Notes: generated from the letters alone by a model not told the origin. A stretch of 64,000 bases of DNA from Minisyncoccia bacterium (GCA_041742965.1 JBGTNQ010000004.1:716-64715), one strand, 5' to 3'; positions 41,165 to 61,217 are shown, counted from the stretch's first letter. Made by a program: numbers and translations.

Positions 41165-41180
41165 AATGCAAATATTATAA

Positions 41181-41213: not shown

Positions 41214-41265
41214 GGACCTAGGCCCAAAGAATCCAAGTCGGACCCCAGAGACTTAGGGTTAAAGT

Positions 41266-41785: not shown

Positions 41786-41815
41786 ATTATACCATACTTC
41801 ATACTAAAAAGTCAA
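41786..41815 (-). promoter_or_regulatory. Strong sigma70-like promoter for cassette E. -35 TTGACT, 18-nt spacer, -10 TATAAT.
   Basis: Plus-strand agtcaa at 41810-41815 and attata at 41786-41791. About 160-nt leader containing an 11-bp inverted repeat (41686-41696 and 41735-41744). Confidence 0.5.
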
Positions 41816-47770: not shown

Positions 47771-48325
47771 TTAAGGAGCGTAAGTTCCTCGTAAAACAGC
47801 TGTGGAATAGAATTTTTTTGTTCTAAAACTCTCACCTTGACCGCTCTCTACCGTCATCTCTATTTTTATAGCATGAGATTCATCTGTAATAATCTTTCTG
47901 AAAACCAAACCTGAGACTCTGGCAGAAGACGCTGAGAGCGGTCCGACCAAAACTGATTCCTCTTCGACAAAAATAGTTTCTGAATCTAAATAAAACTCCA
48001 TTACCATTGGAGAGCCCGTATCATTAGTTGTGATCAAAGATATTTTGCCTGGAGAAGAATTGAAAATACTGTCTGTATCCGAAATTGCGATTGAATTCCT
48101 TATTTCTCTGGCCATCATATCCAGAGCAACTTGTGCCGTCGTATCTATAGAAGCAACGGATCTCAACACCCTATATGACTTTGCTACCGAAAAGAGAGAA
48201 CTTGTAACTACAGCCAACACAAGGGATAAAATGAATACATATACTAATATCTCTACCAGAGAAAATCCTGCCTTGTTTTTTACCAAACTTTTTTTTCTAA
48301 TAATTTTCATCATTTTAATTCTCAA
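47771..48325 (-). CDS. Type IV pilin-like protein (pseudopilin)
   Basis: Prepilin motif KAGFSLVEILV. Confidence 0.6.
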   Translation of the reverse strand: MRIKMMKIIRKKSLVKNKAGFSLVEILVYVFILSLVLAVVTSSLFSVAKSYRVLRSVASIDTTAQVALDMMAREIRNSIAISDTDSIFNSSPGKISLITTNDTGSPMVMEFYLDSETIFVEEESVLVGPLSASSARVSGLVFRKIITDESHAIKIEMTVESGQGESFRTKKFYSTAVLRGTYAP

Positions 48326-48818
48326 AAATATTTGTTAGATAAGTTGAAAAACTCTTTGTTGATGTAGCCCCCCTATTCGACCAAGATACCGAGACTGTTA
48401 CTTTTTTTGTATTTGAATCCAAAGTTCCTCCGTTTAAAACAATGTCATAATTTGAATCTCTATAAACATCGCTTAAGACAACGGATCTTTCAAAAACATC
48501 ATCTACTAATACGTATGATGATGTAGCACTCCAATTTTGGTTTTCAAAAATAATAAAAAACGGTGAGTTGGAAGAATGGATTGCAATGTTATCTTGCCAA
48601 CCAGAATCTCTCAATATCCTAACAACTTCCAAACCTTCTTCTGCTAAAAAATTAGATTGTATTCTACTACTGTTCAAAAGAGACATATTTAGAATCATCG
48701 TAAAAACAGTATTTAAACTTAAAAAAACCATAAGGGCCAGGGCGGTAGCCACCAGTGCCTCGGCTAAAGAATAGCCATCATTTTTTGACTTCTTGTTAAT
48801 TTTTATTAAATATTTCAT
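48315..48818 (-). CDS. Type IV pilin-like protein (minor pilin)
   Basis: Prepilin motif DGYSLAEALVA. Confidence 0.55.
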   Translation of the reverse strand: MKYLIKINKKSKNDGYSLAEALVATALALMVFLSLNTVFTMILNMSLLNSSRIQSNFLAEEGLEVVRILRDSGWQDNIAIHSSNSPFFIIFENQNWSATSSYVLVDDVFERSVVLSDVYRDSNYDIVLNGGTLDSNTKKVTVSVSWSNRGATSTKSFSTYLTNIFEN

Positions 48819-48830
48819 ACCATCTTTAAA

Positions 48831-49307
48831 CTATTCGATCTCTGAAAGTCCGGTTTCAAAAACCCTTATTGTTTTACTTGACGAAGAATCGGAAACTAAT
48901 TCCATAACGACAGTTCCAAATTGTTGAGTCCTTCCATTTAATCTTTCAAAAACAAGTTCTAACCCTCCCCCATCGAGATTAATAGAAGATATGATCACTT
49001 GCGATGACAAATCTGTTATTAAGTTATCTGAATTTAAAGGATTATAGGAATCTCCAGCAAAAAAAGTAACCTTGTCTCCCTCAAAGTATACCCCATATTG
49101 AGAAGAATTTTTTGATGACAATGTTAGAGATCTTGCATCTTGAATTATAGAAAGAACTTTTAGAGACTCTTTGTCCAAAAGTTCTTTTTTGTTTAGATTT
49201 GAAAAAGAAGAGAAAGTAATAATGGAAAGCAGAAAAATTATTCCAATGACAACTAAAATCTCAACAAGAGTAAACCCTAACCTCGTTTTTTTAGAGAAAA
49301 TATACAT
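48831..49307 (-). CDS. Type IV pilin
   Basis: Class III signal RLGFTLVEILVVIGII. Confidence 0.7.
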   Translation of the reverse strand: MYIFSKKTRLGFTLVEILVVIGIIFLLSIITFSSFSNLNKKELLDKESLKVLSIIQDARSLTLSSKNSSQYGVYFEGDKVTFFAGDSYNPLNSDNLITDLSSQVIISSINLDGGGLELVFERLNGRTQQFGTVVMELVSDSSSSKTIRVFETGLSEIE

Positions 49308-50524
49308 TAAATACTATCTACAAGAGAGTAGGTCGGGGCAAGCATTGAAATGGCGAATAAGCCAACACCCGCCCCAATAATAATCATAAGAATTGGCTCT
49401 ATTATGGTAGAAAGATCTTTGGTTTTTTGGTCCACCTCATTCTCATAAAATGCAGCGACATTCAAAAGCATTTCCGAAACCTTGCCGGTTTCTTCACCCA
49501 CCCCCATCATCTCTCCAACAAAAATCGGATACAGATGACTATTTTCTACAAATATCGATGACATCGGCTCGCCCTTCTCAACATTGAGTCTTGCTTTTGC
49601 TAATACTTCTTTATAAAAAACATTTTGAACAACATCTTCAGTGACAGAAAGGGCCACCACAACATCGACGCCGGAAGACATGAGGGATGAGAGGGTCCGT
49701 GCGGTACGAGCAGAATTAACTTCTTTCACAATATTACCTATTACTGGAATCTTGATGGAAAACTTATTAAAAAACCTCTTCCCAGTAGAACTTTTGAAAA
49801 AAGCAAAAAAAGCCAAGGCTATAACTAATACCGAGGAAAAGAAAAGAAGAAAGCTGGTCCTCAAAAAATCACTCACAAAGATAATCACTCTCGTTGAAAG
49901 AGGTAAATCAATACCAAGCCCTTCAAAAGTTGCGGTTAGAGTTGGAACCATATAAATCATCATCAGAATACCAATAACAATCATAAGAGATATGATTACA
50001 ACAGGATAAATCATGGCACCTCTAACTTTTTTTAATATTAAGTAAGATTTTTCCATTTGCATGGATACCATCTTAAGAGAGCTGGCCAAGTTCCCAGACT
50101 CTTCTCCCGCTTTTACCATAGAAATAAAAAGTGGGGAAAAAATGTCTGATTTTTCTTCCATTGACTTACTCAAGGTATTGCCTTTACTGACAGAATCAAC
50201 GAGATAATTTAAAACTTCTTTCAATTTTTTGTTACGAGTCTGTTTTTCCATCACCTCCAAAGCTCTAGTGACCGGAAGGCCGGCCTCAATCATGGAACCA
50301 AGGTTTCTGGCAAAAACTATCTTTTCTGAAGTCTTTATTCGACCAAACATACTCCCAGTTTTCTTAAAAATCCGATTTCTTACTCCTGACTCTTCTTTTA
50401 CATATATGACAAACTGACCATCTGCTTTCATTTTTCTATAGAGAGCGAATCTGTCTGGCATTTCAATTTTCCCAGCACTAACTTCATTATTTTTTCCTAT
50501 TACTTTGTAGTTAAAAATGGGCAT
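49307..50524 (-). CDS. pilC: Type IV pilus platform protein PilC (GspF family)
   Basis: 405 aa. Two GspF-type repeats with 3 TM segments. Confidence 0.8.
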   Translation of the reverse strand: MPIFNYKVIGKNNEVSAGKIEMPDRFALYRKMKADGQFVIYVKEESGVRNRIFKKTGSMFGRIKTSEKIVFARNLGSMIEAGLPVTRALEVMEKQTRNKKLKEVLNYLVDSVSKGNTLSKSMEEKSDIFSPLFISMVKAGEESGNLASSLKMVSMQMEKSYLILKKVRGAMIYPVVIISLMIVIGILMMIYMVPTLTATFEGLGIDLPLSTRVIIFVSDFLRTSFLLFFSSVLVIALAFFAFFKSSTGKRFFNKFSIKIPVIGNIVKEVNSARTARTLSSLMSSGVDVVVALSVTEDVVQNVFYKEVLAKARLNVEKGEPMSSIFVENSHLYPIFVGEMMGVGEETGKVSEMLLNVAAFYENEVDQKTKDLSTIIEPILMIIIGAGVGLFAISMLAPTYSLVDSI

Positions 50525-52284
50525 TAAATTTCAGATGTTACGACCCTCAAGACTTCCTCTATCGTTGTTATACCTTGAACAGCTTTAAATATACCGTCCT
50601 CTGCCATTGTAAGCATTCCCTCTTTCTTGGCTTGATTCTCAAGCTCCTGAGTTGTTACACCCCTCATGACTAAATCTCTAATAGTTGGAGTAACCTTCAA
50701 AACCTCGTGAATACCGATACGACTCTTATATCCATCTTCACTATCAGCACTTGGTTTTGCTTTATACATAGGGATTTTATCCCATGTGGCATTCTTATCG
50801 ATTACTTTTTCTTCTCTTAGAAAAGACAACACCCTTTCTAAATCAATCACCTTATTAAGCTGAGCAATTTCTTCCTTAGTCAAAAAATATTTTTCCTTTG
50901 TGTCAGACAGGCGACGAATCAGCCTCTGTGCAATTATTACCGAAAGTGTGGATGTGAGGAGAAACGGCTCAACCTTCATATCAACCAATCGCGCTATGGC
51001 ACCGGCCGCTGAATTAGTGTGCAAGGTTGAAAGAACCAGGTGACCAGTCAGGGCGGCGTTCACCGCTAGTGCGGCGGTCTCTGTGTCGCGAATCTCCCCC
51101 ACCATTATGACATCGGGGTCCTGACGCACCAAAGTACGCAAACCTGTCGCAAAAGTGAAGCCAATTTCAGACTTCACCTGTGTCTGATTCACTCTCTTCA
51201 TCTGATATTCTATTGGATCTTCAATAGTAGAGATATTTACATCTGGTGTATTTAAAATATCAAGCATTGTATATAGAGTGGTCGTCTTTCCTGAGCCAGT
51301 CGGACCTGTAGTCAAAATCATACCGGTAGAGAGACGCGCTGCTTTGTGAAGTGTCTCCAAGCCCTCACCGTGAAAACCTAGACCTTCAAGAGTAAACCCA
51401 GAAACCCCTTCTCTCAAAAGACGCATAACCGTTTTTTCTCCATAATAAACTGGCAGAGTAGACACACGGAAAGAAACCTTCTCTTGATTCATTTCAATTT
51501 TGAAACGACCATCTTGAGGAATTCTTTTTTCATCCAGCTTCAGATTTGAAAGCACCTTAATACGAGCAGTGATGCCACTAGCAACATTTTTAGGTAGTAC
51601 CATGGCGTCATGAAGTATGCCGTCAATACGATACCTGACCACCACCTGTGTCTCCATTGGTTCTATGTGTATGTCAGAGGCATCTTGAATTATGGCGTGC
51701 TTCAAAAGCGTGTCTACGATACGAACAACTGGCACATCTTCGGCTAATTTTTTCAAATCATCCTCGCTTACTTCGTCCCCTCCCATTTTGTCAGCCACAG
51801 CCTTCAGTGCAGAAGCCTCTTTTTGAATAATATCCCCGAATTCTGCCTTCAGACTCTTTTGATAATTCAAAAGAGCACTCTTCATTGACTCTCCATCAGT
51901 TAGACGGGGAAGTATTTTAAGTCCCGTCTTTTTTCTTACAAAATCAATAGCAGCCAAATCCTCGGTATCAAGCATTGCTACTTCAAGACTCTCATTTACT
52001 TTCCTGAAAGCCACAATATTGTGGTTGCGAGCGATTGGCTCCGGAATCATAGAGAGTATCTCAAAATCCATGTGTTGACCCTTGAGGTCAACAAAAGGAA
52101 TACCCAGAATATATGCTTGCATACGACGGAGGTCGTCTTCGGTAATGCTTCCCTTGTTTACCAAGATTTTACCAACGCTTATTCCAGACTCTTTTGATTC
52201 TTTCTCAGCCTTGGTAATATCAGCCCGGGACACGAGTCCGGAGTCAAGAATAAATTCTTTTAGCTGTGTTTCTTCTATGTGCAT
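50524..52284 (-). CDS. pilB: Type IV pilus assembly ATPase PilB (GspE family)
   Basis: N-terminal GSPII_E_N domain. Walker A GPTGSGKTTTLY. Asp and His boxes. Confidence 0.85.
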   Translation of the reverse strand: MHIEETQLKEFILDSGLVSRADITKAEKESKESGISVGKILVNKGSITEDDLRRMQAYILGIPFVDLKGQHMDFEILSMIPEPIARNHNIVAFRKVNESLEVAMLDTEDLAAIDFVRKKTGLKILPRLTDGESMKSALLNYQKSLKAEFGDIIQKEASALKAVADKMGGDEVSEDDLKKLAEDVPVVRIVDTLLKHAIIQDASDIHIEPMETQVVVRYRIDGILHDAMVLPKNVASGITARIKVLSNLKLDEKRIPQDGRFKIEMNQEKVSFRVSTLPVYYGEKTVMRLLREGVSGFTLEGLGFHGEGLETLHKAARLSTGMILTTGPTGSGKTTTLYTMLDILNTPDVNISTIEDPIEYQMKRVNQTQVKSEIGFTFATGLRTLVRQDPDVIMVGEIRDTETAALAVNAALTGHLVLSTLHTNSAAGAIARLVDMKVEPFLLTSTLSVIIAQRLIRRLSDTKEKYFLTKEEIAQLNKVIDLERVLSFLREEKVIDKNATWDKIPMYKAKPSADSEDGYKSRIGIHEVLKVTPTIRDLVMRGVTTQELENQAKKEGMLTMAEDGIFKAVQGITTIEEVLRVVTSEI

Positions 52285-52428: not shown

Positions 52429-55400
52429 TTAAAACTCTTCGAATATTGGATCGAGTGCAATAATAATTGTACCCTGAGCGAAAGCTGTTCCTTCATTACA
52501 GCTAACATCAACCCTTATTGTTTTTGAACCGGTAGTAGAGTATGCCATGTTGAAAGTGCTACCGGTTGGAGCTGGAGAAGTTGGAACTTCTGTTCCAGAC
52601 CAAGTATAAGTACAATTTGTGCCACCCACTACGGTTGCAGACCAAGGAACATTCTGACCCACGCCAGCCTTTGATGGACCATTTATTGTAATAGTAGGGG
52701 CCGCTGGATTAGAAACAATCAAATTAAAGAACGTTGTCTTATCTAGGGTACCAGGAGATGTTCCAGTAACTGTGATCGGATGAGTCCCAGGAGGAGCCGT
52801 AGATTGAACAGTGAAAGTGGCGGTACTAGGACAGGTTGGATTTGGACTACATGATGTTGGAGCAAAAGAGACACTTACCCCAGAAGGTAGTCCTGACGCG
52901 GACAAACTAACTGCTTGTGTCGTCCCTTGAATATAGTTTCTTGTAATGGTGTTTGAACCATTAACTGCAGACGAGCTCTTTGTAACAGAAATATTTCCTG
53001 AATTTGAAAGACTGTAATCAAAAGCTGGACCAGAAACAGTCACTGTCGCACTAGCGGGCGTAGTTCCACCAGGACCAGTACAAGTCAGGGTGTATGTGGT
53101 GTTGCTTGTTGGAGAAACATTTTCTGAACCACCAGTGGTAAGTTTACTTCCACTCCAACCGCCGGAAGCAGTACACGATGTAGCATTAGTTGATGTCCAA
53201 GTTAAAGTTGAACTCTGCCCACTTGTGATAGTGGTTGGAGAAGCGGATAGGGAAACACTAGGTGCCGTTATTGCCAATGGAAACAACTGAGTTTGAGGAA
53301 TAATCTGTTTGGCAGTTGAAGGGCTCGCCCATGAAAGCTGAGCTGTTGCTCCTCCAGTATTTTCATAGTACTCCATTACAATATTGTATTTCGTACCACC
53401 AGTAAGAGTGACAGGCGCTGAAGATACTTCTGTGGGGGCCTGGTCAACCCACCGACTTATTATCTGACTGCCGTTTACCCACAACCGAGTGCCGTCATCA
53501 GTTCGAGTATAGAAGGTATAGCTTTCAGAACACCTTGCCTCTATCTGACCTTCCCAACGCACAGAGAAAGTATCGGGACCACCAGCGCGATTTGTACCAA
53601 GAAAATCTGCTGGATCAAAGTTTATAGTTGAATCAACATATTGACCCATAAGAGTATTGAATGATATTCCATCATAATATGTACCTCTAAGACCGGTTCC
53701 TGCGCCAGCAGAAACACAAGTAGAAGCTGTATAATTAACTGTAAACTGTTTCGTCTGACCACCAGCAATATTTAATGAATTACCGCCATCACTACTGGTT
53801 ATAGAAGAAACTACATATGAAGCGGGGGATGAATTTGAAGTCAGAGAATATGTTCCAGCGGGAACAGTATTTGAAGTACCAGTATAACCTCCTGGATTAA
53901 TCACCCAAGAACCACCGGAGGCACCATTTTCTACTACATTTATCACCCCAGTTGCTGGTCCAATATTAACCCTGAAGGTATCAACTGCGGTCGTTGTGCC
54001 GTCATTACAGCTTATTCCAAAGTCTGTCGGATTAACGCTAAGTGGCCCTAGCCCCGGTGCTGTATTCAATGTTCCACTACTTCCATAACTTCCAACCCAC
54101 CAACCGCCAGTAGCCGTACATATAGTACCAGCAAGATTTGGCCCAGTACTTGACCACTGTAGATTCACATAGCTTCCGGAAGGAAGTGTTATGGATTGAA
54201 CATAGCTTCCAGTACCATGCTGTCTTCCTGTAAGATCTACAGTCAATGAAGCGCACGCCGAGGAAGATGTCGTCCAAGAAGTATTGGAAGATAAAAGAGA
54301 ACTTCCAGCAGCATTGAATGCCCTGACATTATAGTAATGAGAAGTACCTGGAGTTACAGTGTCTGTATATGATGTGCCAGAACCTGAATATATAGGAGTA
54401 CCTCCGCCGTCTCTGTAAATACTATAGCTCGTAGCTCCTGCTACTGAAGACCAAGTAATATCGATTCGACCACCGCAAGTTGAAGAAGTGGACGCGTTTA
54501 TTGTCGGAGCATTAGGTACTCTCTGTGCAAAAACCGTATCACTTACTGTTCCTCCGCCAGAAAGATTACATGTTATTGGGTAAGTTGTTCCAGAAACGGA
54601 AGGATATTGGGGATGAGAACTTGCAAGAGGGCCGGCAGAACCATTCACTCCAACTCCAGAATTTACAGGGGCACCAATTGAACAAGAGGTTGTGTTTGAA
54701 GATGACCAGTTGTACCAGAAGTTTTGCAGGATTCCAGACACATACCCCAAATAAACAGGTCCGTCAGAGAAAGTGCTTCCATTATTACTTGCCTTTATGT
54801 CAACAGAACCTCCGACAGGACATGCGCTAGGAGCAGTGGCGGGAACAGAACTCGAATAAACAGATGAACCGTATGCATTTGAAGCCAAAACTGTATAACT
54901 GTGACTTGAATTGGCTACTAAACCGGTGTGAGAAAACGAGGTAGATGGACCTGTGTATATGTCTGTTGAACCGTCACGAAGGGTATAACTCGTAGCACCA
55001 GGAGAAGCATCCCAAGACACATTTATAGTTCCTGTTCCACAAGAACCACTTGGTATTGCTGTAAGCCCCGTTGGGGTGGCTGGTACAACATTTACAGTAA
55101 CACTGTCGCTAGGGCCATTGCCACCACTGTTACTACAATAAATACTAAAAGTAGTGGATACAGTTAGAGGTCCCGTGGACTGACTGTTTGATGAAGCAAA
55201 GCCCTTCCCTCCTGTCCAGTTTGAATTGCCCTGATTATTAGAAGCGGTGCAAGATGTTGGCGAATTACTAGTGGTCCAAGTTAAATTAGCGGAAGTATTA
55301 TATGTAATAGATATTGGGCCATCAGAGCTATTGGCTTTTATGTCTACATTTGGTAGCCCAACAGCATCACAGGTATAATTAATAGTAAATTGCTTTGTCT

Positions 55401-56064
55401 GACCATAAGAAACATTTAAAGAATTGCCACCGTCTGTGCTAGAAACAGAGTATCCAGTAGCGCCTCTAGGTGTAGTATTAACAGTCAAATTATATGTACC
55501 CGGTGATACCGTATTGCTTGATCCTGTATAACCACCCGGATTAACTGTCCATGTGCCACCACTAACACAGCCGGCCGTTGAAACAATTATTGTTGCTGGA
55601 GAACAATTCACGTCAACATATGTGAAATCCTCGGCTGTTTCTGCGTAACCAGGGGCTGGCCCACTACCATAATACTGTAATGTATATCCGTGAGGATATC
55701 CGGGAAGACTATCTGGAACACCTGAGTCGACATAGCTATTACTAACTCCTTGGAAAAACCCCAGGTCAACATAGTAACCCTGCCATCTATATAATTTAAA
55801 CCAAGCAGTATCACCATCGGTAATCAATGCGGGATTAAAATTCGGCGAAATACGAAAAGAGTTACAGCTGAGTGGAGTTACCACCGTCTCACCTCCAGCA
55901 AGAGCTATATTTATTGGAAATGCTCCGGTAAGTGAGAGTAATAAAGAAAAAATTATAGATAAAAAAACAATCTGTCGCCTCCAAAGAAGGGTGCGCATTT
56001 CTGTAGGAAAAAAAACGATTCTTGAAATTTTTTTTAACATAATAGTATTTAGAAGTCGTTTCAC
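52429..56064 (-). CDS. Giant secreted surface protein with FN3-like repeats and a PA14 domain (putative adhesin)
   Basis: 1211 aa. Signal/TM. FN3-like repeats: PATPTGLTA...SYTLRDG. PA14-like block: GLRGTYYDGISFNTLMGQYVDSTINFD...ESYTFYTRTDDGTRLWVNG...YNIVMEYYENTGGATAQLSW. Confidence 0.6.
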   Translation of the reverse strand: MKRLLNTIMLKKISRIVFFPTEMRTLLWRRQIVFLSIIFSLLLSLTGAFPINIALAGGETVVTPLSCNSFRISPNFNPALITDGDTAWFKLYRWQGYYVDLGFFQGVSNSYVDSGVPDSLPGYPHGYTLQYYGSGPAPGYAETAEDFTYVDVNCSPATIIVSTAGCVSGGTWTVNPGGYTGSSNTVSPGTYNLTVNTTPRGATGYSVSSTDGGNSLNVSYGQTKQFTINYTCDAVGLPNVDIKANSSDGPISITYNTSANLTWTTSNSPTSCTASNNQGNSNWTGGKGFASSNSQSTGPLTVSTTFSIYCSNSGGNGPSDSVTVNVVPATPTGLTAIPSGSCGTGTINVSWDASPGATSYTLRDGSTDIYTGPSTSFSHTGLVANSSHSYTVLASNAYGSSVYSSSVPATAPSACPVGGSVDIKASNNGSTFSDGPVYLGYVSGILQNFWYNWSSSNTTSCSIGAPVNSGVGVNGSAGPLASSHPQYPSVSGTTYPITCNLSGGGTVSDTVFAQRVPNAPTINASTSSTCGGRIDITWSSVAGATSYSIYRDGGGTPIYSGSGTSYTDTVTPGTSHYYNVRAFNAAGSSLLSSNTSWTTSSSACASLTVDLTGRQHGTGSYVQSITLPSGSYVNLQWSSTGPNLAGTICTATGGWWVGSYGSSGTLNTAPGLGPLSVNPTDFGISCNDGTTTAVDTFRVNIGPATGVINVVENGASGGSWVINPGGYTGTSNTVPAGTYSLTSNSSPASYVVSSITSSDGGNSLNIAGGQTKQFTVNYTASTCVSAGAGTGLRGTYYDGISFNTLMGQYVDSTINFDPADFLGTNRAGGPDTFSVRWEGQIEARCSESYTFYTRTDDGTRLWVNGSQIISRWVDQAPTEVSSAPVTLTGGTKYNIVMEYYENTGGATAQLSWASPSTAKQIIPQTQLFPLAITAPSVSLSASPTTITSGQSSTLTWTSTNATSCTASGGWSGSKLTTGGSENVSPTSNTTYTLTCTGPGGTTPASATVTVSGPAFDYSLSNSGNISVTKSSSAVNGSNTITRNYIQGTTQAVSLSASGLPSGVSVSFAPTSCSPNPTCPSTATFTVQSTAPPGTHPITVTGTSPGTLDKTTFFNLIVSNPAAPTITINGPSKAGVGQNVPWSATVVGGTNCTYTWSGTEVPTSPAPTGSTFNMAYSTTGSKTIRVDVSCNEGTAFAQGTIIIALDPIFEEF

Positions 56065-56090
56065 TTTTAAAAGGAGTTTAATATTTTAAT

Positions 56091-56642
56091 TTAGTTATTT
56101 TCTGTATAACTTATTTGCACCACCGTCTCGCCATTTAGAGAAGAAGCAACAACTAGAAGTGAATCGCCATTTTTTGTTCCGTTAAGGGCGTGATTTCCCT
56201 CATCTCTTCCATTTTCAGCAAATTCAAAACCTGCTCTAGTCATATAATCCAGATATTGATTATATTTTTCTAAAGCAGTGCTTGTTGTGGTGTAATTGAC
56301 AGTATGGACAGTTATTGGGACTGGTCTGTCGGTATAGACTTTTGTATCGCTGACTGTAATGGTCTCCAGCTCAACAGGAATATCTCTAGGGAAACCTTCT
56401 GGTAGTTTTTCTGCGTCTGTTTGAGCATTATTTATATCAACTGCATTAAGAAAAACGCTTTCTTCTGTAACATCACTCCCTTGCCCATCTAGATTATTGC
56501 CAGAGCGTCTGTCCTTACCAACAATGGAAAATAAGACAAAGATAAGTAGAAGGGCAACGAAAGCTACGATTATTGAAACAATACTCTTATCAAATTTGCC
56601 TGAATTAGTTCCATTTTTTGACATTTGTTCTTGTGGTGGCAT
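56091..56642 (-). CDS. Hypothetical membrane-anchored protein
   Basis: 183 aa. Single TM. No family recognised. Confidence 0.4.
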   Translation of the reverse strand: MPPQEQMSKNGTNSGKFDKSIVSIIVAFVALLLIFVLFSIVGKDRRSGNNLDGQGSDVTEESVFLNAVDINNAQTDAEKLPEGFPRDIPVELETITVSDTKVYTDRPVPITVHTVNYTTTSTALEKYNQYLDYMTRAGFEFAENGRDEGNHALNGTKNGDSLLVVASSLNGETVVQISYTENN

Positions 56643-56977
56643 ATTAAAAAATATTAAATTACTAAAATAAAAGAGAATTGTTGATATTCTATCATAAAAT
56701 TGCCCTGCTTAATGAATTAAGTTATACACATAAGGGTTGCACAGAAATCCCAATTAGATAATCAAAAAGATTCAAAACGCAAGATTATAGCCCTGAAAAA
56801 TGTCAGTAATATCTTCCGAGATTAAAAAATCTATTATACCTGAAGTCAATATATTGACTCGTATGCGATAACGCTTGACTATGTAGACAGAGCTAACGAG
56901 GTTACTTTGTTTAGCGCACCTTGACACACCACATATTCCTCTAGGTCTAAAGCCAGAGGATTAACAGAGGAGGTATT

Positions 56978-58384
56978 ATGGAACGCATTGGATTTAACCG
57001 CCTTGGACAAATTTTGTCCATTCGGGTGGTCGTGGTCGCATTGGTATTCGCAACATTGGTTTCCTGCAAGAGTACTGGCTTCGTCGACCCACCCCCAGAA
57101 GAGACCTTGACCGTCTCCATCGTCTCACCGTCATCCTCAAATATCCAACAAAATGGATGGCCAGATAGCCAAGTAGAGTTGCAGGCTGAAGCCAGAAGTT
57201 CTGTTGGCGGTAGAATAACCAGCCCTTCCCTCATCACATGGAAAAAGGCTGGGGCAGTGATCGGTAGTGGTCAGCTGGTCTCTGTATCATTTGAAAACGG
57301 AAACCATGAGGTCTGCGTTGTTGTGAAAAGCGCGATCAACCAAGGTTCTGAAAAAGAGGTCTGCTTGTCATTTGTCGTCACCCCAGCCCCACCGATCACA
57401 GTTGAGCTCGTAACATCAGCGAAGCTTGGCGTCATAAACTGCCAGAACTTCAGGGCCTATGCCCAGAGGGGCTCTGTTGCCGATTCGGCTGACTTCAATG
57501 TCAACTGTCGGGCAGAAGTGTCTCCAAGACTTACCCTTCTCCAAGACACCAACAGGGTCAATGTCTGGTTTGATGCCAAGAACACATCTAACCGTAGCCA
57601 CTACCCTAGTATGGCGTCTGTGGCGAAGGACTCTCTCAAGGTCAACCAAAAGTTTGTAGCCGGACCATTGGAGTACAGAATACACTCCGGTAAATGGTCC
57701 GACCAGACGATTGGTATTGACTTGGAGACAGCCTTCGCCATAAGTGCTGACGGTATTTTCTCTTTTTACCGCAGTTCAACAGTAGGAAGTAACTCAGTCT
57801 ACTACAGCATTGGTGGACGGCTTCCAAATGGGTTTCCCATCCAAATCACAGTGCGCAAAGAGTCTGGGCAAGGAGCATTAACCCCAACTGACACTGTCGG
57901 TTTTGGAAATGCAGTAACTGAGCTGTCAGAAGAACTCGGAATGCCTATGACGATGGTTTCACTTTCGGCCTCAGAAGTAAGTGGCTGGAATGGAATCTTG
58001 GCAATAGTCTCAGACACCATACCAATACCAGTAGGTAATACACAATGGGGCGCGAGCGGTGACATAATTGGGGGACGAATTATCGTCTCGCCAAACACAA
58101 TTCCGCACGCCTTCAAACATACAGTTAAACACGAGCTTGTACACGCCCTTGGTGTCGGCCATGTGTCACTATGGCCACCCGGTCTCATGAGTACAGACCA
58201 GAGTAGTATCAATGTGGGTAGCCCCAACTATGCGGTCCCTCAACCGCTAGAAACAGGCCACCTTTGGTTCATGTACGATATCTGGGAAGCCAAGAGGCAG
58301 TCTGGTGCACAATATGGCATTCCGAATATGCATCAGGCTTGGCGTGTGCTCGTTCTCAACCTCCCGTATCAGCACATCCGCTGA
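56978..58384 (+). CDS. Lipoprotein with C-terminal metzincin-type zinc metalloprotease motif, GC-rich island G
   Basis: Lipobox LVSC. HELVHALGVGH (HExxHxxGxxH) with a Met (GLMS) 10 residues downstream of the third His. SD AGGAGG 5 nt before ATG. GC about 52%. Confidence 0.55.
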   Translation: MERIGFNRLGQILSIRVVVVALVFATLVSCKSTGFVDPPPEETLTVSIVSPSSSNIQQNGWPDSQVELQAEARSSVGGRITSPSLITWKKAGAVIGSGQLVSVSFENGNHEVCVVVKSAINQGSEKEVCLSFVVTPAPPITVELVTSAKLGVINCQNFRAYAQRGSVADSADFNVNCRAEVSPRLTLLQDTNRVNVWFDAKNTSNRSHYPSMASVAKDSLKVNQKFVAGPLEYRIHSGKWSDQTIGIDLETAFAISADGIFSFYRSSTVGSNSVYYSIGGRLPNGFPIQITVRKESGQGALTPTDTVGFGNAVTELSEELGMPMTMVSLSASEVSGWNGILAIVSDTIPIPVGNTQWGASGDIIGGRIIVSPNTIPHAFKHTVKHELVHALGVGHVSLWPPGLMSTDQSSINVGSPNYAVPQPLETGHLWFMYDIWEAKRQSGAQYGIPNMHQAWRVLVLNLPYQHIR

Positions 58385-58410
58385 TCTTTAAATATTGTGG
58401 TGTTCACGAT

Positions 58411-58460
58411 TTGGCCCCTGTGGCCAAACAACCCAGCGACATGTCGTTGGGTTGTTTTAC
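58411..58460 (+). terminator. Tandem hairpin terminator
   Basis: ttggcc-cctgt-ggccaa, then a near-perfect 30-nt palindrome aacaacccagcgacatgtcgttgggttgtt, then TT. Confidence 0.5.
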
Positions 58461-58649
58461 CCCCAAAAAATTGATGTGTTTTACCAAGTCCCCCACTTAG
58501 TGTTATTTAATTTAAGATATACTGGCCATTAACCTCTGCCTGAAAATAACTATAAAAGTGAATTGACAACAACTCTGTTTTCTTCTATACTATAACCACA
58601 TCCAGGGCACTTCCGCCTTAGAGATGAAGATTGATCTTTTGAAAGGAAG

Positions 58650-58868
58650 GTGATTTGTATGGACAACCGCAACCCTCATCACGCTGAAGGTTTCCGCACG
58701 TCAACAGTGACCAGGTACTTGCCAATCAAGACCTGCGTTGCGGTACGTATCGGAGAAACCGTCGATGTCAGGGACTCGAAACATGGTGACAGTCCAACCC
58801 TATCATTCACCCCTGCTGAATGGGATGCTTTCGTCCAGGGGGTCAAGAAGGGTGAGTTTGACATCTAG
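58650..58868 (+). CDS. DUF397 (BldB-like) family small protein, GC-rich island G
   Basis: VRDSKHGDSPTLSFTPAEWDAFVQGVKKGEFD matches the DUF397 C-terminal signature. SD AAGGAAGG before ATG. Confidence 0.6.
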   Translation: MICMDNRNPHHAEGFRTSTVTRYLPIKTCVAVRIGETVDVRDSKHGDSPTLSFTPAEWDAFVQGVKKGEFDI

Positions 58869-58897
58869 GGATGCATCACCTGTGACGATTCACTCAA

Positions 58898-58932
58898 GTG
58901 GTAGACAGAGGACCCTCCTGTCTACCACTTTT
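58898..58932 (+). terminator. Rho-independent terminator
   Basis: gtggtagacag-aggaccctc-ctgtctaccac then TTTTG. Confidence 0.55.
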
Positions 58933-58995
58933 GATAATAAGATAGTTCTAAGTATAAAAATTAACGCAAACCTAATTCTCAGTAACTTATATAAA

Positions 58996-59490
58996 ATGAA
59001 CAAATTTTATATCATCCCCGGATATGGCGAAACAACTCGTCGCAAGGAATATCAACTGCTCAAAAAAATTGCCCAAAGAAAAGGTTATTCTGTAATACCG
59101 AAAAACCCAAACTGGAAACAACCTATTACAGAACAGATATTTCCTGTAGAGAGTGATGCCATACTCTTCGGTTTTTCAATGGGCGCAATCCTCGCCTACG
59201 CGATTGCACTAGAATACCCATGCAAAAAAATAATTCTTGCTTCTATGACACCTTCAGATTTCTTTTCAAGTCCACTTCTTAAACAAGCTCTGGGAAGCAA
59301 AATGGTAAAAGATTTAAAAAAAATTGATTTTAAAAAGAAAAAGTCCAAAACCAAACTTATCCGACTCTATGGAGAAAAAGAGGTAAAAGATTTCCCCATT
59401 GGCATCTCTTTCAAAGTTGATTATCTAATCCCCAACTCACACCACGAATTAACAAAAGAATACCTAAAAGAAGTGGGGAAACAGCTATAA
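58996..59490 (+). CDS. Small alpha/beta-hydrolase-like protein
   Basis: GFSMG nucleophile-elbow (GxSxG). AT-rich native composition. Start moved to MNKFYII; the upstream part of the tracked ORF overlaps DUF397 in another frame. Confidence 0.45.
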   Translation: MNKFYIIPGYGETTRRKEYQLLKKIAQRKGYSVIPKNPNWKQPITEQIFPVESDAILFGFSMGAILAYAIALEYPCKKIILASMTPSDFFSSPLLKQALGSKMVKDLKKIDFKKKKSKTKLIRLYGEKEVKDFPIGISFKVDYLIPNSHHELTKEYLKEVGKQL

Positions 59491-59691
59491 AAACCGCACA
59501 AACTATAATCACCCTACGCCCTATATATAAGAGTGATCGTGTATGGGGTTGACATAAAATCTGTATTTGCTATAATTAAGGAGTGAGTGTATTAGTTCGC
59601 CCAAAAGGCGGACTCGTTTTTTTAGAGAAATGTAAGAAGTAAAACGACTATACATTTCCTAACCCCGTGAAATAACTTTTAAATCTTCCCT

Positions 59692-59958
59692 ATGTTCTAT
59701 ACGTATGTACTTCGATCTAAAAAAGATTCAAAGTTGTACATTGGTTGCACAAAAGATTTAAAAGTTAGATTTGAGGAACATAACGCTGGGTATTCTTCAG
59801 CAACAAGTAAAAGAGGTCCGTTTCAACTTGTTTATTACGAAGCTTGTTGTGACAAGAAAGACGCGTTGCGACGGGAGAGATATCTGAAAACTACCTATGG
59901 TGGAAGATATCTCAAAAATCGCCTCAAATCTTATTTCACAGGGTACTCAATTTTATAA
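59692..59958 (+). CDS. GIY-YIG nuclease family small protein
   Basis: YTYVLRS...LYIGCT (GIY-YIG), R and E catalytic residues. 88 aa. Confidence 0.65.
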   Translation: MFYTYVLRSKKDSKLYIGCTKDLKVRFEEHNAGYSSATSKRGPFQLVYYEACCDKKDALRRERYLKTTYGGRYLKNRLKSYFTGYSIL

Positions 59959-59984
59959 TTCATTATCATTCATTAAAAATTGGT

Positions 59985-61217
59985 ATGTTTGACCTAAAAG
60001 TAATAAATTCCGTTCTTGACCAGATGGAACAAGAGCGAGGAATACCAAAAGAAAAAATTATAGAGGCCATAGAGATGGCCCTAGCAACTGCATATAAGAA
60101 AGAATACGGTAAACGCGGACAAATAGTGCGTGCCAAATTTGATATAAATACCGGAAAAACTGAATTTTATCAGGTGAAGATTGTGGTTGATGATTCACGA
60201 GTTATCATCACAGAAAATGATGATGACTTTGTGCGTGAAGAAGGAGACGAGAGAATTTTCTTCAACTCCGAACATCATATTCTCATAGAAGACGCTCAAA
60301 AAATAAAGCGTGATGCTGAACTGGATGAAGAAGTTGTATTCCCATTAGAAAACAAGAGCGACTTCGGACGCATTGCATCACAAACCGCGAAGCAAGTCAT
60401 AATGCAAAAAATCCGTGAAGCAGAAAAAGATTCAGTGATGGGAGAATTCGGAAGTCGAGAGGGAGACATTGTCACTGGAACAGTACAGAGAGTGGAAAGA
60501 GGAAATATTTTTGTAGATATGGGCAGAGCAACCGGCCTTCTGCCATACGAAGAACAAATACCTGGAGAAAGATTTGCCCAAGGAGAAAGAGTGCGCGCAT
60601 ACTTATATCGCGTAGAAGAAACTCCAAAAGGAATATTCCTCCGTCTCTCTCGTTCTCATCCAAAGTTTTTGGAAAAACTATTTATGCAAGAAGCTCCAGA
60701 AGTTGCTAATGGAATGGTGGAAATAAAAGCTGTCGCCCGTGAAGCGGGAAACAGAAGTAAGGTCGCTGTATTTTCAAAAGACGAGCACATTGACCCAGTG
60801 GGTTCTATGGTAGGACAGCGTGGTGTCAGGGTCTCTACGGTAACGAGTGAGCTCGGCGGAGAAAAGATAGACATAATAGAGTGGTCATCTGACTCAAAAA
60901 AGTTTATTGAAGACGCACTCTCTCCGGCAAAAGTTCTCTCTGTAGAGATTGACGAAGAAAACAAACAAGCACATATAAAAGTGTCTGAAGATCAACAGTC
61001 TCTAGCTATCGGTCGCGGAGGACAAAATGTCCGGCTGGCAGCAAAACTTACCGGTTGGAAAATAGACATTCAGTCTGTTGGCGGAGAAAACCTAGCAGAG
61101 GCCGAGGCTCTACCAGACGAAGTGAAACCTGAAGAAAAACCAATTGAAAAAGTTTCAGAAGAAACTGAAGCCATATCTGACGCGATCTCTACCCCAGACG
61201 AATCATCAGAAAAATAA
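59985..61217 (+). CDS. nusA: Transcription termination/antitermination factor NusA
   Basis: N-terminal domain, S1 domain, tandem KH domains (GRGGQNVRLAAKLTGWKIDI). Confidence 0.88.
   Translation: MFDLKVINSVLDQMEQERGIPKEKIIEAIEMALATAYKKEYGKRGQIVRAKFDINTGKTEFYQVKIVVDDSRVIITENDDDFVREEGDERIFFNSEHHILIEDAQKIKRDAELDEEVVFPLENKSDFGRIASQTAKQVIMQKIREAEKDSVMGEFGSREGDIVTGTVQRVERGNIFVDMGRATGLLPYEEQIPGERFAQGERVRAYLYRVEETPKGIFLRLSRSHPKFLEKLFMQEAPEVANGMVEIKAVAREAGNRSKVAVFSKDEHIDPVGSMVGQRGVRVSTVTSELGGEKIDIIEWSSDSKKFIEDALSPAKVLSVEIDEENKQAHIKVSEDQQSLAIGRGGQNVRLAAKLTGWKIDIQSVGGENLAEAEALPDEVKPEEKPIEKVSEETEAISDAISTPDESSEK

What the first reader, a model, noticed from the sequence alone, without database searches (positions are those of the whole stretch)
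56650..58990. Island G: lipoprotein metzincin plus actinobacterial-type DUF397/BldB-like gene
- This 2.3-kb GC-rich island has strong SDs and three terminator hairpins.
- It encodes a 468-aa lipoprotein (lipobox LVSC) ending in a HExxHxxGxxH metzincin motif.
- It also encodes a 72-aa protein with the DUF397 signature (VRDSK..SPTLSF..EWDAFVQGVKKGEFD).
- DUF397/BldB proteins are characteristic of Actinobacteria and are normally paired with an XRE-type HTH partner, which is absent here.
- Candidate host-to-epibiont gene transfer, or a novel pairing of a secreted protease with a BldB-like factor.
Basis: partly seen in the sequence, partly recalled or inferred. Interest (0 to 1): 0.65.

Follow-up and report, generated by a model that had tools for sequence, protein, structure and literature searches.

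The report
Surface metzincin plus orphan DUF397 gene
The "island" is two unrelated genes of an ultra-small (Patescibacteria) bacterium: a fast-evolving surface zinc protease belonging to a pilus/adhesin locus, and a small DUF397 protein that is widespread in these bacteria, so neither is a recent gift from an actinobacterial host.

Summary

**DUF397 (58659-58868).** It passes Pfam (49 bits, cutoff 24). Its nearest relatives are all Patescibacteria (70-82% identity), and synonymous sites are saturated. It has its own promoter and terminator. No XRE partner occurs here, and only 1 of 46 Patescibacteria loci has a weak one, against 35 of 35 actinobacterial loci. The Glu of the family's CxE motif is lost. 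In 23 of 39 loci, including this one, a small serine hydrolase follows (58996-59490).

**Pairing.** The protease and DUF397 are neighbours in 2 of 8 genomes, so the pairing looks incidental.

**Composition.** The high GC is real but follows gene borders. It recurs in orthologues and remains unexplained.

**Verdict.** These are new variants of known kinds, of moderate interest.

The parts
48315..52284 (-). Context: type IV pilus-like genes. These are a pilin-like gene (48315-48818), a pilin with an N-methylation motif (48831-49307), a PilC-like T2SSF gene (49307-50524) and a PilB-like T2SSE ATPase gene (50524-52284).
   Evidence: Pfam gives T2SSE at 1.3e-121, T2SSF at 2e-54 and N_methyl at 2.5e-4. 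The same genes flank the protease locus in L091, L093, L095 and L096.
52429..56064 (-). Context: a giant (1211 aa) repeat-rich surface protein with a PA14 domain. It is the first gene of the hypervariable block.
   Evidence: Pfam PA14 at 1.4e-19. It is homologous to the giant gene in L090 (39% identity, E = 4e-64). It is only 47% identical to the L091 copy, although the flanking T2SSE is 93.5% identical.
56091..56642 (-). Context: a 183-aa single-pass membrane protein, conserved next to the protease gene and transcribed divergently from it.
   Evidence: It is 46-49% identical to the neighbours in L001 and L090. A profile of it hits the gene adjacent to the protease in L091, L093, L094, L095 and L096. 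It has no Pfam family above threshold.
56643..56977 (.). AT-rich divergent intergenic region (GC 0.28-0.38), with a GAGGAGG Shine-Dalgarno sequence just before 56978.
   Evidence: It is not part of the GC-rich stretch, although the finding's coordinates include it.
56978..58384 (+). A 468-aa lipoprotein with a metzincin-fold zinc metallopeptidase domain. Its layout is a signal peptide with lipobox (aa 1-30; Cys30 at 57065-57067), a linker, an Ig/Fn3-like domain (aa 44-135), a beta-rich middle domain (aa 140-295) and a catalytic domain (aa ~300-468).
   Evidence: - The window protein has no Pfam or NCBIfam hit.
- An exhaustive profile search finds 183 representatives at E <= 1e-3.
- 17 of 62 relatives hit PF00413 weakly.
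- The family profile matches MMP-7 and MMP-12 in the PDB at about 1e-4.
- The AlphaFold model has pLDDT 91.3 and pTM 0.85.
- Foldseek gives MMP-7 a TM-score of 0.53-0.57.
58130..58189 (+). Zinc-binding motif HELVHALGVGH (aa 385-395, 58130-58162) and the candidate Met-turn PPGLM404 (58187-58189).
   Evidence: Read directly from the sequence. H385, E386, H389, G392, G394, H395 and W399 are at least 90% conserved in 62 relatives, and the consensus reads ...GHTCxWxSxM. M404 is invariant in the three close orthologues. HExxHxxGxxH is present in 133 of 151 family representatives.
58411..58462 (+). Two adjacent hairpins after the protease gene. The second (58426-58457; 16-nt arms, 94% complementary) is followed by a T-run, so it is a likely intrinsic terminator.
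   Evidence: MFE -31.2 kcal/mol against -18.6 +/- 2.9 for shuffles, z = -4.27. Inverted repeat I2.
58563..58591 (+). Sigma-70-like promoter TTGACA-17-TATACT for the DUF397 gene. The Shine-Dalgarno sequence AAGGAAGGTG lies at 58643-58652.
   Evidence: It matches 11 of 12 consensus positions; the sequence is. This is a consensus match only. The number of such sites in the region is no higher than in shuffles.
58659..58868 (+). A 69-aa DUF397 protein of a Patescibacteria subfamily. It has CVA in place of CxE, keeps RDS and EWDAFVQGVKKGEFD, and has no signal peptide.
   Evidence: - PF04149 at 49.3 bits.
- 39 homologues at 54-82% identity, all carrying PF04149; alignment A2.
- Codon-position identities of 0.81/0.90/0.32 against Wolfebacteria.
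- Motif census.
- The gene is not called in the public gene set of the Logan contig.
58896..58934 (+). Intrinsic terminator after DUF397: 13-nt perfect arms, a 9-nt loop and TTTT.
   Evidence: Inverted repeat I3; z = -3.16. A hairpin plus T-rich tail lies at the same place in 22 of 23 DUF397-hydrolase loci.
58996..59490 (+). A 164-aa minimal alpha/beta-hydrolase-fold serine hydrolase (GFS61MGA, E129, H150) with no signal peptide. It is the recurrent downstream neighbour of DUF397 in Patescibacteria.
   Evidence: - Pfam hits to alpha/beta-hydrolase families fall below their cutoffs.
- The family alignment has GFSxG, S83, E129 and H150 invariant.
- The family profile matches alpha/beta hydrolases in the PDB (2xmz, 1.4e-8).
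- A hydrolase follows DUF397 on the same strand in 23 of 39 Patescibacteria loci and in 0 of 35 actinobacterial loci.
59692..61217 (+). Context: a small GIY-YIG protein (59692-59958) and nusA (59985-61217), which form the conserved right flank of the locus.
   Evidence: Pfam GIY-YIG at 7e-19. NusA relatives are 80-91% identical and are named as Zambryskibacteria and Paceibacterota. L001 has the same order, protease - GIY-YIG - nusA.

Best explanation
The stretch holds two independent transcription units with different histories. It lies in a Zambryskibacteria-like Paceibacteria (Patescibacteria/CPR) genome.

**Unit 1: the protease (56978-58384)**
- It is a membrane-anchored lipoprotein. An Ig-like domain and a beta-rich domain carry a C-terminal metzincin-fold zinc endopeptidase outside the cell.
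- It is the last member of a conserved surface locus: pilins, PilC, PilB, a giant PA14/Ig-repeat adhesin, a small single-pass membrane protein, then the metzincin, next to nusA.
- Inferred role: it cleaves proteins at the cell surface. The targets would be the neighbouring adhesin or pilus-associated proteins, or proteins on a host cell.
- The adhesin, membrane protein and protease form a hypervariable block between conserved flanks. Similarity between protease copies does not follow genome relatedness, so the block either diversifies very fast or is swapped among related lineages.

**Unit 2: DUF397 (58659-58868)**
- It is a small cytoplasmic protein with its own promoter-like site, a strong ribosome-binding site and its own terminator.
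- It belongs to a family that is widespread in Patescibacteria and under strong purifying selection. The family has no XRE partner and has lost the Glu of the CxE motif.
- A small serine hydrolase usually follows it, here at 58996-59490.
- Inferred role, by analogy with BldB (not a DNA-binding protein; forms hetero-oligomers): it acts by binding other proteins. The hydrolase downstream would be expressed at a lower level, by terminator read-through or from its own promoter.

**Relation between the units**
- Their adjacency is incidental.
- The high GC3 of both genes is a property of each gene family, not a scar of recent import.
For: **Shown: protease identity**
- The motif and Met-turn are present.
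- The family profile matches MMP-7 and MMP-12.
- The confident model has a metzincin fold.

**Shown: protease locus**
- The lipobox Cys is conserved.
- The same neighbourhood occurs in the window, L001, L090, L091/92, L093, L095 and L096. The pilus genes in the window are confirmed by Pfam.
- Identity of the window to L091: T2SSE 93.5%, NusA 91.4%, giant protein 47%, membrane protein 36%, protease 26%. The protease is 58% identical to the L001 copy (NusA 81%) and 50.5% to the L002 copy (NusA 73.5%).

**Shown: DUF397**
- The Pfam match passes the cutoff, and the nearest relatives are Patescibacteria only.
- Synonymous sites are saturated.
- An XRE/WhiJ-like profile hits 35 of 35 actinobacterial DUF397 loci and 1 of 46 Patescibacteria loci, weakly.
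- The CxE Glu is present in 39 of 42 actinobacterial sequences and 4 of 45 Patescibacteria sequences.
- A hydrolase lies downstream in 23 of 39 loci.
- A hairpin and T-run lie between the two genes in 22 of 23 loci.
- DUF397 and the hydrolase are absent from six of the eight protease loci.

**Shown: composition**
- The protease has a higher GC3 than every neighbouring gene in 8 of 8 genomes.
- DUF397 has a higher GC3 than its hydrolase partner in 20 of 23 loci.

**From the literature**
- BldB does not bind DNA and forms hetero-oligomers (PMC10294661).
Against: - No activity, localisation or expression data exist. The protease substrate and the function of DUF397 are inferences from context.
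- The window protease itself matches no curated family model. Its active-site geometry was judged from fold matches, not from inspecting coordinates.
- The window and L002 both hold DUF397-hydrolase within 1 kb of the protease, so a loose functional link cannot be fully excluded.
- The hydrolase association holds in 59% of loci, not all. Other neighbours include HAD hydrolases, ABC-F proteins and pheST.
- The persistent GC3 excess has no demonstrated cause. Repeated imports from GC-richer donors would also produce it.
- Locus taxonomy rests on the labels given to MAGs.
- The neighbour-joining tree of a roughly 60-residue domain is weak evidence.
Confidence: 0.75

Rival explanations
1. One reading: a recently acquired genomic island, transferred from an actinobacterial host to its epibiont, that carries both genes.
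For: - Both genes are GC- and GC3-rich outliers in a 40% GC genome.
- The literature describes DUF397 as actinobacterial (PMC2701414; PMC7159879: "currently found only in actinobacteria").
- Actinobacterial DUF397 proteins align at about 50-55% identity.
Against: - The best DUF397 relatives (70-82% identity) are all Patescibacteria.
- Synonymous sites are saturated even against these relatives.
- GC falls to the genome level between the two genes, and the co-located hydrolase is compositionally native.
- The protease keeps the same locus in eight related genomes.
- The protease's more distant relatives that carry a name are Longimicrobiales, not Actinomycetota.
- The XRE partner and the CxE Glu typical of actinobacterial copies are missing.
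- No flanking repeats or integrase are present in the window.
Confidence: 0.04
2. A functional two-gene module in which the cytoplasmic DUF397 protein regulates or partners the secreted metzincin.
For: In both the window and the Zambryskibacteria locus L002, DUF397 lies within about 1 kb of the protease gene.
Against: - Six other genomes with the protease at the same locus lack DUF397 within the 6-10 kb examined.
- Of roughly 40 Patescibacteria DUF397 loci, only these two have the protease nearby.
- The order of the genes differs between the two loci, and the two DUF397 copies belong to different subfamilies.
- The two genes have separate promoter and terminator signals.
- The two proteins are predicted to be in different compartments.
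Confidence: 0.06
3. DUF397 and the hydrolase form a mobile, toxin-antitoxin-like or conflict cassette. DUF397 was predicted to be a toxin by Makarova et al. (2009). The cassette would have inserted between the protease gene and nusA.
For: - Relative to L001 (protease - GIY-YIG - nusA), the window has an extra 1.1 kb holding exactly DUF397 and the hydrolase.
- In L002 the pair sits next to an rve-family integrase, on the other side of the protease.
- The pair is patchily distributed, and DUF397 subfamilies are mixed with hydrolase subfamilies.
- The hydrolase has a weak PADLOC match to a phospholipase effector (E = 4.6e-4).
Against: - There is no HTH antitoxin.
- DUF397 is under very strong purifying selection across classes, which is unusual for addiction modules.
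- Loci usually hold a single copy.
- No terminal repeats or target duplications are present.
- A terminator separates the two genes in 22 of 23 loci.
- Experimental work in Streptomyces found that XRE/DUF397 pairs behave as regulators rather than toxin-antitoxin systems (PMC6262351, PMC10364602).
Confidence: 0.12
4. An assembly chimera: the GC-rich pieces come from another organism in the metagenome.
For: GC shifts abruptly at about 56900 and 58950.
Against: - An independent Logan assembly is identical across 52978-59575.
- The protease occupies the same position in seven other assemblies from different samples.
- The GC changes coincide with start codons and terminators, not with arbitrary points.
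Confidence: 0.02

Closest known systems
Metzincin zinc endopeptidases, nearest to matrixins (MEROPS M10A / Pfam PF00413; for example MMP-7 and MMP-12). It also resembles snapalysin (M7), adamalysins/ADAMs (M12B) and archaemetzincin.
   Same: - It has the HExxHxxGxxH motif and a Met about 9 residues after the third His (H-VSLWPPGL-M, compared with H-SxDPGAL-M in MMPs, from my own knowledge of MMP sequences).
- The family profile aligns to MMP-7 and MMP-12 across the motif and Met-turn.
   Different: - The window protein reaches no Pfam or NCBIfam threshold.
- The residue after the third His is Val, not the Ser of matrixins.
- There is no PRCGxPD cysteine-switch prodomain.
- It is lipid-anchored and has an Ig-like domain plus an uncharacterised beta-rich domain on the N-terminal side.
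- The family is confined, as far as names show, to Paceibacteria and Longimicrobiales, and every member is labelled hypothetical.
BldB / XRE-DUF397 (WhiJ-BldB-type) pairs of Actinomycetota
   Same: - It matches PF04149 and is of the same size, about 70 aa.
- It keeps the conserved Cys-Val, RD(S/T)K and EWxAFxxGVKxGEFD segments.
   Different: - There is no adjacent XRE/WhiJ gene (1 of 46 loci against 35 of 35).
- The CxE Glu is replaced by Ala, Met or Gln.
- It is single-copy rather than in tandem or expanded families.
- A terminator and a small serine hydrolase follow it.
- Its host is a non-differentiating organism with a reduced genome.
Minimal alpha/beta-hydrolase-fold serine hydrolases (Hydrolase_4/S33-like, RBBP9/YdeN-like)
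   Same: - It has the GxSxG nucleophile elbow and a C-terminal His.
- The family profile matches alpha/beta hydrolases in the PDB (2xmz at 1.4e-8; cinnamoyl esterases; RBBP9 weakly).
   Different: - It is only about 160 aa long and falls below every Pfam cutoff.
- The acid residue of the triad is not established.
- Its recurrent placement after DUF397 was not found described in the literature searched.
Type IV pilus loci of Patescibacteria with giant surface proteins, implicated in episymbiosis in Saccharibacteria
   Same: PilB, PilC and pilin genes lie next to a giant repeat protein.
   Different: The conserved lipoprotein metzincin and the small membrane protein at the end of the locus are not mentioned in the literature found.

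Membership tests
Metzincin clan | Extended zinc-binding motif HExxHxxGxxH | tested here: met
   HELVHALGVGH at aa 385-395. The motif is at least 90% conserved in 62 relatives and present in 133 of 151 representatives.
Metzincin clan | A conserved Met (the Met-turn) downstream of the third His | tested here: met
   M404 is invariant in the close orthologues, and the family consensus reads GHTCxWxSxM. It aligns to the MMP-7 Met-turn region. Its position beneath the zinc site in the model was not inspected.
Metzincin clan | Catalytic-domain fold (a mixed beta-sheet with an active-site helix and a C-terminal helix) | tested here: met
Metzincin clan | Zinc-dependent peptidase activity | not testable with these tools
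   This needs biochemistry.
Matrixin (M10A, PF00413) | Pfam model match at or above the gathering score | tested here: not met
   The window protein has no hit at E <= 1. Only 17 of 62 relatives give weak hits, the best at 7.7e-7.
Matrixin (M10A, PF00413) | Ser immediately after the third His, and a cysteine-switch (PRCGxPD) prodomain | tested here: not met
   The sequence reads H395-V396, and no PRCG motif occurs in the 468 aa. The definition of these features comes from established metzincin classification (my own knowledge).
Bacterial lipoprotein | A signal peptide ending in the lipobox [LVI][ASTVI][GAS]C | tested here: met
   MERIGFNRLGQILSIRVVVVALVFATLVS-C30. The Cys is invariant in P0001-P0003. 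A lipobox-like motif occurs in 61 of 151 family members. Residues 1-35 are unstructured in the model.
Bacterial lipoprotein | Lgt and LspA processing enzymes present in the genome | not tested
   Only a 64-kb window was available.
DUF397 (PF04149) | Pfam model match above the gathering score | tested here: met
   49.3 bits against a cutoff of 24, E = 5.6e-13, covering profile positions 16-55 of 55.
DUF397 (PF04149) | CxE motif in beta-strand 2 (Kaur et al. 2020, PMC7159879) | tested here: not met
   The window protein has C-V-A. Glu is present in 4 of 45 Patescibacteria sequences and 39 of 42 actinobacterial sequences.
DUF397 (PF04149) | [quoted passage not shown] | tested here: met
   VRDSK in the window protein. 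R, D and S/T are conserved in both groups.
XRE-DUF397 / WhiJ-BldB pair (proposed type II toxin-antitoxin or regulator pair) | An adjacent upstream gene for an XRE-family HTH protein | tested here: not met
   The neighbours in the window are the protease and the hydrolase. An XRE/WhiJ profile built from actinobacterial neighbours hits 35 of 35 actinobacterial loci and 1 of 46 Patescibacteria loci, weakly (L048).
XRE-DUF397 / WhiJ-BldB pair (proposed type II toxin-antitoxin or regulator pair) | Oligomerisation, or regulation of development or antibiotic production | not testable with these tools
   This is known only from Streptomyces experiments (PMC10294661, PMC10364602).
Alpha/beta hydrolase fold (58996-59490) | GxSxG nucleophile elbow with a catalytic His and an acid residue | tested here: met
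   G59-F-S61-M-G63, H150 and E129 are invariant in 17 homologues. The identity of the acid residue is inferred.
Alpha/beta hydrolase fold (58996-59490) | A significant match to a curated family model or to a solved structure | tested here: inconclusive
   Pfam hits to Abhydrolase_2, Thioesterase and Hydrolase_4 fall below their cutoffs (E about 2e-3). The family profile does match 2xmz at 1.4e-8.

The most novel reading that the evidence does not exclude
Patescibacteria carry an undescribed, XRE-independent form of the BldB/DUF397 small protein. It has lost the Glu of CxE, is 70-80% identical across classes, and is monocistronic with a conserved terminator. It forms a two-gene module with a minimal serine hydrolase. 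If so, the basic function of DUF397 is not tied to WhiJ-type regulators or to actinobacterial development. Separately, the metzincin lipoprotein would be a dedicated and rapidly diversifying component of the pilus/giant-adhesin host-contact apparatus of Paceibacteria.
Probability: 0.35. Interest if true: 0.6.

Novelty: new variant of a known kind. Interest (0 to 1): 0.45.

Why it matters
**DUF397.** The biochemical role of DUF397/BldB has stayed unknown for decades. It has been studied only alongside XRE/WhiJ partners in Actinomycetota, and a 2020 survey states that it occurs only there. A strongly conserved, partner-less version in organisms with minimal genomes, recurrently placed before one kind of enzyme, offers a simpler setting in which to ask what the domain does. 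It also points to the CxE Glu as a candidate residue for contact with the XRE partner.

**The protease.** Host attachment by Patescibacteria depends on pili and large surface proteins. A conserved but hypervariable adhesin-membrane protein-metzincin block beside the pilus genes is a concrete candidate for determining host range.

**For genome scanning.** GC-rich "islands" in these genomes can be gene-family-intrinsic and old. They are therefore not reliable evidence of recent transfer.

Tried and rejected
- **First structure prediction.** The AlphaFold run with only three sequences failed (pLDDT 33.6) and was discarded. It was rerun with 62 relatives.
- **Curated family searches.** Pfam, NCBIfam and PADLOC on the window protease gave nothing. 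A PDB sequence search with the DUF397 profile found no solved relative.
- **Rfam.** A search of the whole window found only a tmRNA and tRNAs, and nothing in the region.
- **Terminator scan.** The consensus scan missed the real hairpins because of its stem and loop limits. They were recovered by folding and by repeat search.
- **Mobile-element signatures.** No flanking direct or inverted repeats were found around DUF397 and the hydrolase.
- **Translational selection as the cause of high GC3.** This was considered and rejected. Ribosomal-protein genes in the window have ordinary or low GC3 (0.24-0.36).
- **Recent transfer as the cause of high GC3.** This was rejected for DUF397. Its synonymous sites are saturated, and its hydrolase neighbour is GC3-poor in 20 of 23 loci.
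- **Fold search of the AlphaFold database.** The afdb50 library was not available.
- **Literature.** Searches for DUF397 or BldB together with Patescibacteria returned nothing relevant. The "BLDB" hits refer to the Beta-Lactamase DataBase.


Full report
**1. What is there**

The window is about 40.5% GC.

- The ORF at 56978-58384 (468 aa) is 50.0% GC with GC3 0.51.
- No other 1.4-kb stretch of the window reaches that (0 of 626 windows).
- The ORF at 58659-58868 (69 aa from the ATG; the first in-frame start is a GTG at 58650) is 52.9% GC with GC3 0.60.
- Genes of at least 100 aa in the window have GC3 0.344 +/- 0.069.

A 200-nt profile shows that the excess follows gene borders.

- GC is about 0.48-0.52 over 56900-58470 and 58650-58930.
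- It is 0.39 in the spacer between the two genes.
- It is 0.28-0.34 over 56600-56900, which the finding includes.

Both genes have strong Shine-Dalgarno sequences.

- Two lie after the first gene. The one at 58426-58457 is followed by a U-run (z = -4.3).
- One lies after the second gene, at 58896-58930, followed by UUUU (z = -3.2).

A TTGACA-17-TATACT site lies at 58563-58591. The two genes therefore look like separate transcription units. An independent Logan assembly of run SRR28170462 is identical over 52978-59575, so the arrangement is not an artefact of one assembler.

**2. The organism**

- NusA (59985-61217) has relatives at 80-91% identity. The named ones are Candidatus Zambryskibacteria (82%), Paceibacterota, Taylorbacteria and "Patescibacteria group".
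- The window also carries a ribosomal-protein cluster, a tmRNA and type IV pilus genes.
- It is a Zambryskibacteria-like Paceibacteria (CPR) genome.

**3. The protease**

The N-terminus (MERIGFNRLGQILSIRVVVVALVFATLVS-C30) has the form of a lipoprotein signal peptide, and the Cys is invariant in the close orthologues. The motif HELVHALGVGH (aa 385-395) and M404 are present.

Sequence evidence:

- The protein itself hits nothing in Pfam or NCBIfam.
- The word-indexed search of 5.8 billion proteins found only two other clusters.
- An exhaustive profile search found 183 representatives at E <= 1e-3.
- In an alignment of 62 of them, H385, E386, H389, G392, G394, H395 and W399 are at least 90% conserved.
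- 17 of the 62 give weak PF00413 (matrixin) hits and 8 give Reprolysin_5 hits. Their N-terminal parts carry assorted Ig-like domains.
- The family profile matches MMP-7 and MMP-12 in the PDB at about 1e-4, across the motif, the Met-turn and the following helix.

Structure evidence:

- With three sequences AlphaFold failed (pLDDT 33.6). With 62 it gave pLDDT 91.3 and pTM 0.85.
- The model has a disordered N-terminus (aa 1-35), an Ig/Fn3-like domain (44-135), a beta-rich domain (140-295) and an alpha/beta catalytic domain.
- Foldseek agrees, with MMP-7 at a TM-score of 0.53-0.57.

The metzincin assignment is therefore well supported. Membership of the matrixin family proper is not:

- No Pfam hit was obtained.
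- Val rather than Ser follows the third His.
- There is no cysteine-switch prodomain.

**4. Where the protease gene lives**

In the window the order is:

1. pilin-like genes (48315-49307)
2. PilC-like T2SSF
3. PilB-like T2SSE
4. a 1211-aa PA14/repeat protein
5. a 183-aa single-pass membrane protein

Genes 1-5 are all on the minus strand. The protease follows on the plus strand, then DUF397, the hydrolase, GIY-YIG and nusA.

The core arrangement of giant protein, small membrane protein and protease recurs as follows. It has pilus genes on one side and nusA on the other wherever the contig reaches that far.

| Locus | Note |
|---|---|
| L001 | |
| L090 | |
| L091/L092 | NusA 91% identical to the window |
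| L093 | |
| L095 | |
| L096 | |

Homology of the genes in these loci was confirmed with profiles. L002/L003 (Zambryskibacteria) have the protease directly upstream of nusA. One relative, L094, lacks the protease.

The gene is therefore a resident of this lineage's pilus/adhesin locus, not a fresh insertion. The block is nevertheless hypervariable.

| Comparison with the window | T2SSE | NusA | PPase | Giant protein | Membrane protein | Protease |
|---|---|---|---|---|---|---|
| L091 | 93.5% | 91.4% | 78.7% | 47% | 36% | 26% |
| L001 | not compared | 81% | not compared | 44.6% | 47.9% | 58% |
| L002 | not compared | 73.5% | not compared | not compared | not compared | 50.5% |

Protease similarity does not track genome relatedness. 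That points to rapid diversification or to exchange of alleles among related lineages.

More distant family members have GC-rich amino-acid compositions. Those that carry a name are from Longimicrobiaceae or Longimicrobiales. An ancient exchange with Gemmatimonadota is conceivable. An actinobacterial source is not indicated.

**5. The DUF397 gene**

- Pfam PF04149 matches at 49.3 bits against a cutoff of 24.
- The 39 closest proteins (54-82% identity) all carry the domain. The named ones are Wolfebacteria, Kaiserbacteria and Patescibacteria group bacterium.
- A scan of one genome per species found 184 relatives. Among the best 80, about half are from many Patescibacteria classes and the rest are from Actinomycetota.
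- Against the Wolfebacteria copy, amino-acid identity is 77%. Codon positions 1, 2 and 3 are 0.81, 0.90 and 0.32 identical. Synonymous sites are saturated and the protein is under strong constraint, so this is not a recent arrival.
- In a rough neighbour-joining tree the window protein falls in a tight Patescibacteria-only clade.

- A profile built from the actinobacterial upstream neighbours hits 35 of 35 actinobacterial loci.
- It also hits one Gemmatimonadaceae locus.
- It hits only 1 of 46 Patescibacteria loci, weakly.
- Pfam scans of upstream neighbours show no recurrent family.

The literature defines the domain by a CxE and an RDS motif and states that it is "currently found only in actinobacteria" (PMC7159879). 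It treats XRE-DUF397 as clade-specific (PMC2701414). Here the Cys, the Val, RD(S/T)K and EWxAFxxGVKxGEFD are all conserved. The Glu, however, is present in only 4 of 45 Patescibacteria sequences, against 39 of 42 actinobacterial ones. Loss of that Glu goes together with loss of the XRE partner.

**6. The real recurrent neighbour**

Directly downstream on the same strand, 8-110 nt from the DUF397 stop codon, 23 of the 39 Patescibacteria loci with enough sequence encode a small alpha/beta-hydrolase-like protein. None of the 35 actinobacterial loci does.

- The family has GFSxG, S83, E129 and H150 invariant.
- Its profile matches alpha/beta hydrolases of known structure (2xmz, 1.4e-8).
- Individual Pfam hits stay below their cutoffs.
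- In 22 of 23 such loci a stable hairpin with a T-rich tail lies between the two genes. DUF397 is therefore probably an abundant monocistronic transcript, with the hydrolase expressed by read-through or from its own promoter.
- The remaining loci have other neighbours, including HAD hydrolases, ABC-F proteins and pheST.

Relative to L001, the window has exactly DUF397 and the hydrolase inserted between the protease terminator and the GIY-YIG promoter, with no flanking repeats. In L002 the pair sits on the other side of the protease, beside an rve-family integrase. Six other protease loci have no DUF397. The protease-DUF397 adjacency is therefore incidental.

**7. The GC anomaly**

- The protease gene has a higher GC3 than all of its neighbours in 8 of 8 genomes.
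- DUF397 has a higher GC3 than its hydrolase partner in 20 of 23 loci. It exceeds the local background in 27 of 45 cases, most strongly in AT-rich hosts.
- Ribosomal-protein genes in the window are not GC3-rich, so ordinary translational selection does not explain it.
- Saturated synonymous divergence and the compositionally native hydrolase argue against a recent joint import.
- The cause is open. It could be gene-specific selection on the mRNA, recombination-associated bias in an exchanged cassette, or repeated replacement from GC-richer donors.

**8. Mechanism, with status**

*Shown*
- The metzincin fold and motif.
- The lipoprotein-type N-terminus.
- The conserved position of the gene in a pilus/adhesin locus.
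- The hypervariability of that block.
- The identity, conservation and partner-less state of DUF397.
- The altered CxE motif.
- The recurrent hydrolase neighbour with an intervening terminator.

*Inferred*
- The protease works outside the membrane on the neighbouring adhesin, on pilus-associated proteins or on host surface proteins.
- DUF397 acts by binding proteins, as BldB is thought to do. BldB does not bind DNA and forms hetero-oligomers (PMC10294661).
- A functional tie exists between DUF397 and the hydrolase.

**9. Verdict**

- The host-to-epibiont transfer reading and the protease-BldB pairing are not supported.
- Both genes are new variants of known kinds.
- Interest is moderate.
- The most useful leads are the Patescibacteria-wide orphan DUF397-hydrolase pair and the hypervariable adhesin-protease block.

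Noticed in passing
window 58659-58868 and 58765-59490: The public gene calls on the identical Logan contig have a 241-aa ORF at 58765-59490 and no DUF397 gene. The exact DUF397 sequence is absent from the 15-billion-protein collection. Homologues all start at MKK.(I/L)YIIPG, and a terminator lies inside the long ORF. The hydrolase is therefore probably over-extended and DUF397 left unannotated.
   Followed up: partly
window 59549-59625; L001 3350-3432: A perfect sigma-70-like promoter (TTGACA-16-TATAAT) is followed about 18 nt later by a short hairpin (AGTTCGCCC-AAAA-GGCGGACT) and a T-run, then by the small GIY-YIG gene. L001 has the same arrangement with a near-identical hairpin sequence. This could be a leader or attenuator, or a tiny RNA. 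It has no Rfam match.
   Followed up: partly
window 8852-9259, 25772-26113, 35242-35571, 41266-41802, 44206-44427: Other short ORFs have GC3 of 0.49-0.59 against a genome mean of 0.34, and none has a Pfam hit. It is unknown whether they are real genes with the same family-intrinsic GC bias.
   Followed up: partly
window 52429-58384 compared with L091 2452-7803: A hypervariable three-gene block (giant adhesin 47%, membrane protein 36%, protease 26% identity) lies between flanks that are 91-94% identical (T2SSE and NusA) in the nearest relative.
   Followed up: yes
L091 14826-15998: The nearest relative carries a reverse-transcriptase gene (RVT_1) between the RNA methyltransferase and clpP genes. 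The window and other relatives have no such gene at that place. It could be a group II intron or a diversity-generating retroelement.
   Followed up: no
L048 306-1079 (Saccharibacteria MAG): This is the only Patescibacteria locus with a weak XRE/WhiJ-like hit (E = 2.6e-5). It lies about 560 nt upstream of the locus's DUF397 gene and could be an intermediate or ancestral arrangement.
   Followed up: no
L035 (Gemmatimonadaceae MAG), L018 (Mucilaginibacter MAG), L025 (Verrucomicrobiota MAG), L084 (Cloacimonadota MAG): DUF397 genes also occur in MAGs assigned to other phyla. L035 has a full actinobacterial-type XRE partner (E = 6.6e-77). L018, L025 and L084 group with Patescibacteria sequences in the tree. 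These could be binning contamination or transfers.
   Followed up: no
L004 and L009 (Wolfebacteria and a Patescibacteria MAG), within about 7 kb of DUF397: Both loci have a ThiF-like gene near DUF397 and its hydrolase. L004 also has radical-SAM/SPASM genes, and each has unannotated genes of 340-500 aa. This could be a peptide-modification cluster.
   Followed up: no
window 40412-41802: An RNase H gene (303-aa ORF; PF00075 at 1e-39) overlaps the end of a GC-rich 178-aa ORF (GC 0.52, GC3 0.59) that has no family match.
   Followed up: no
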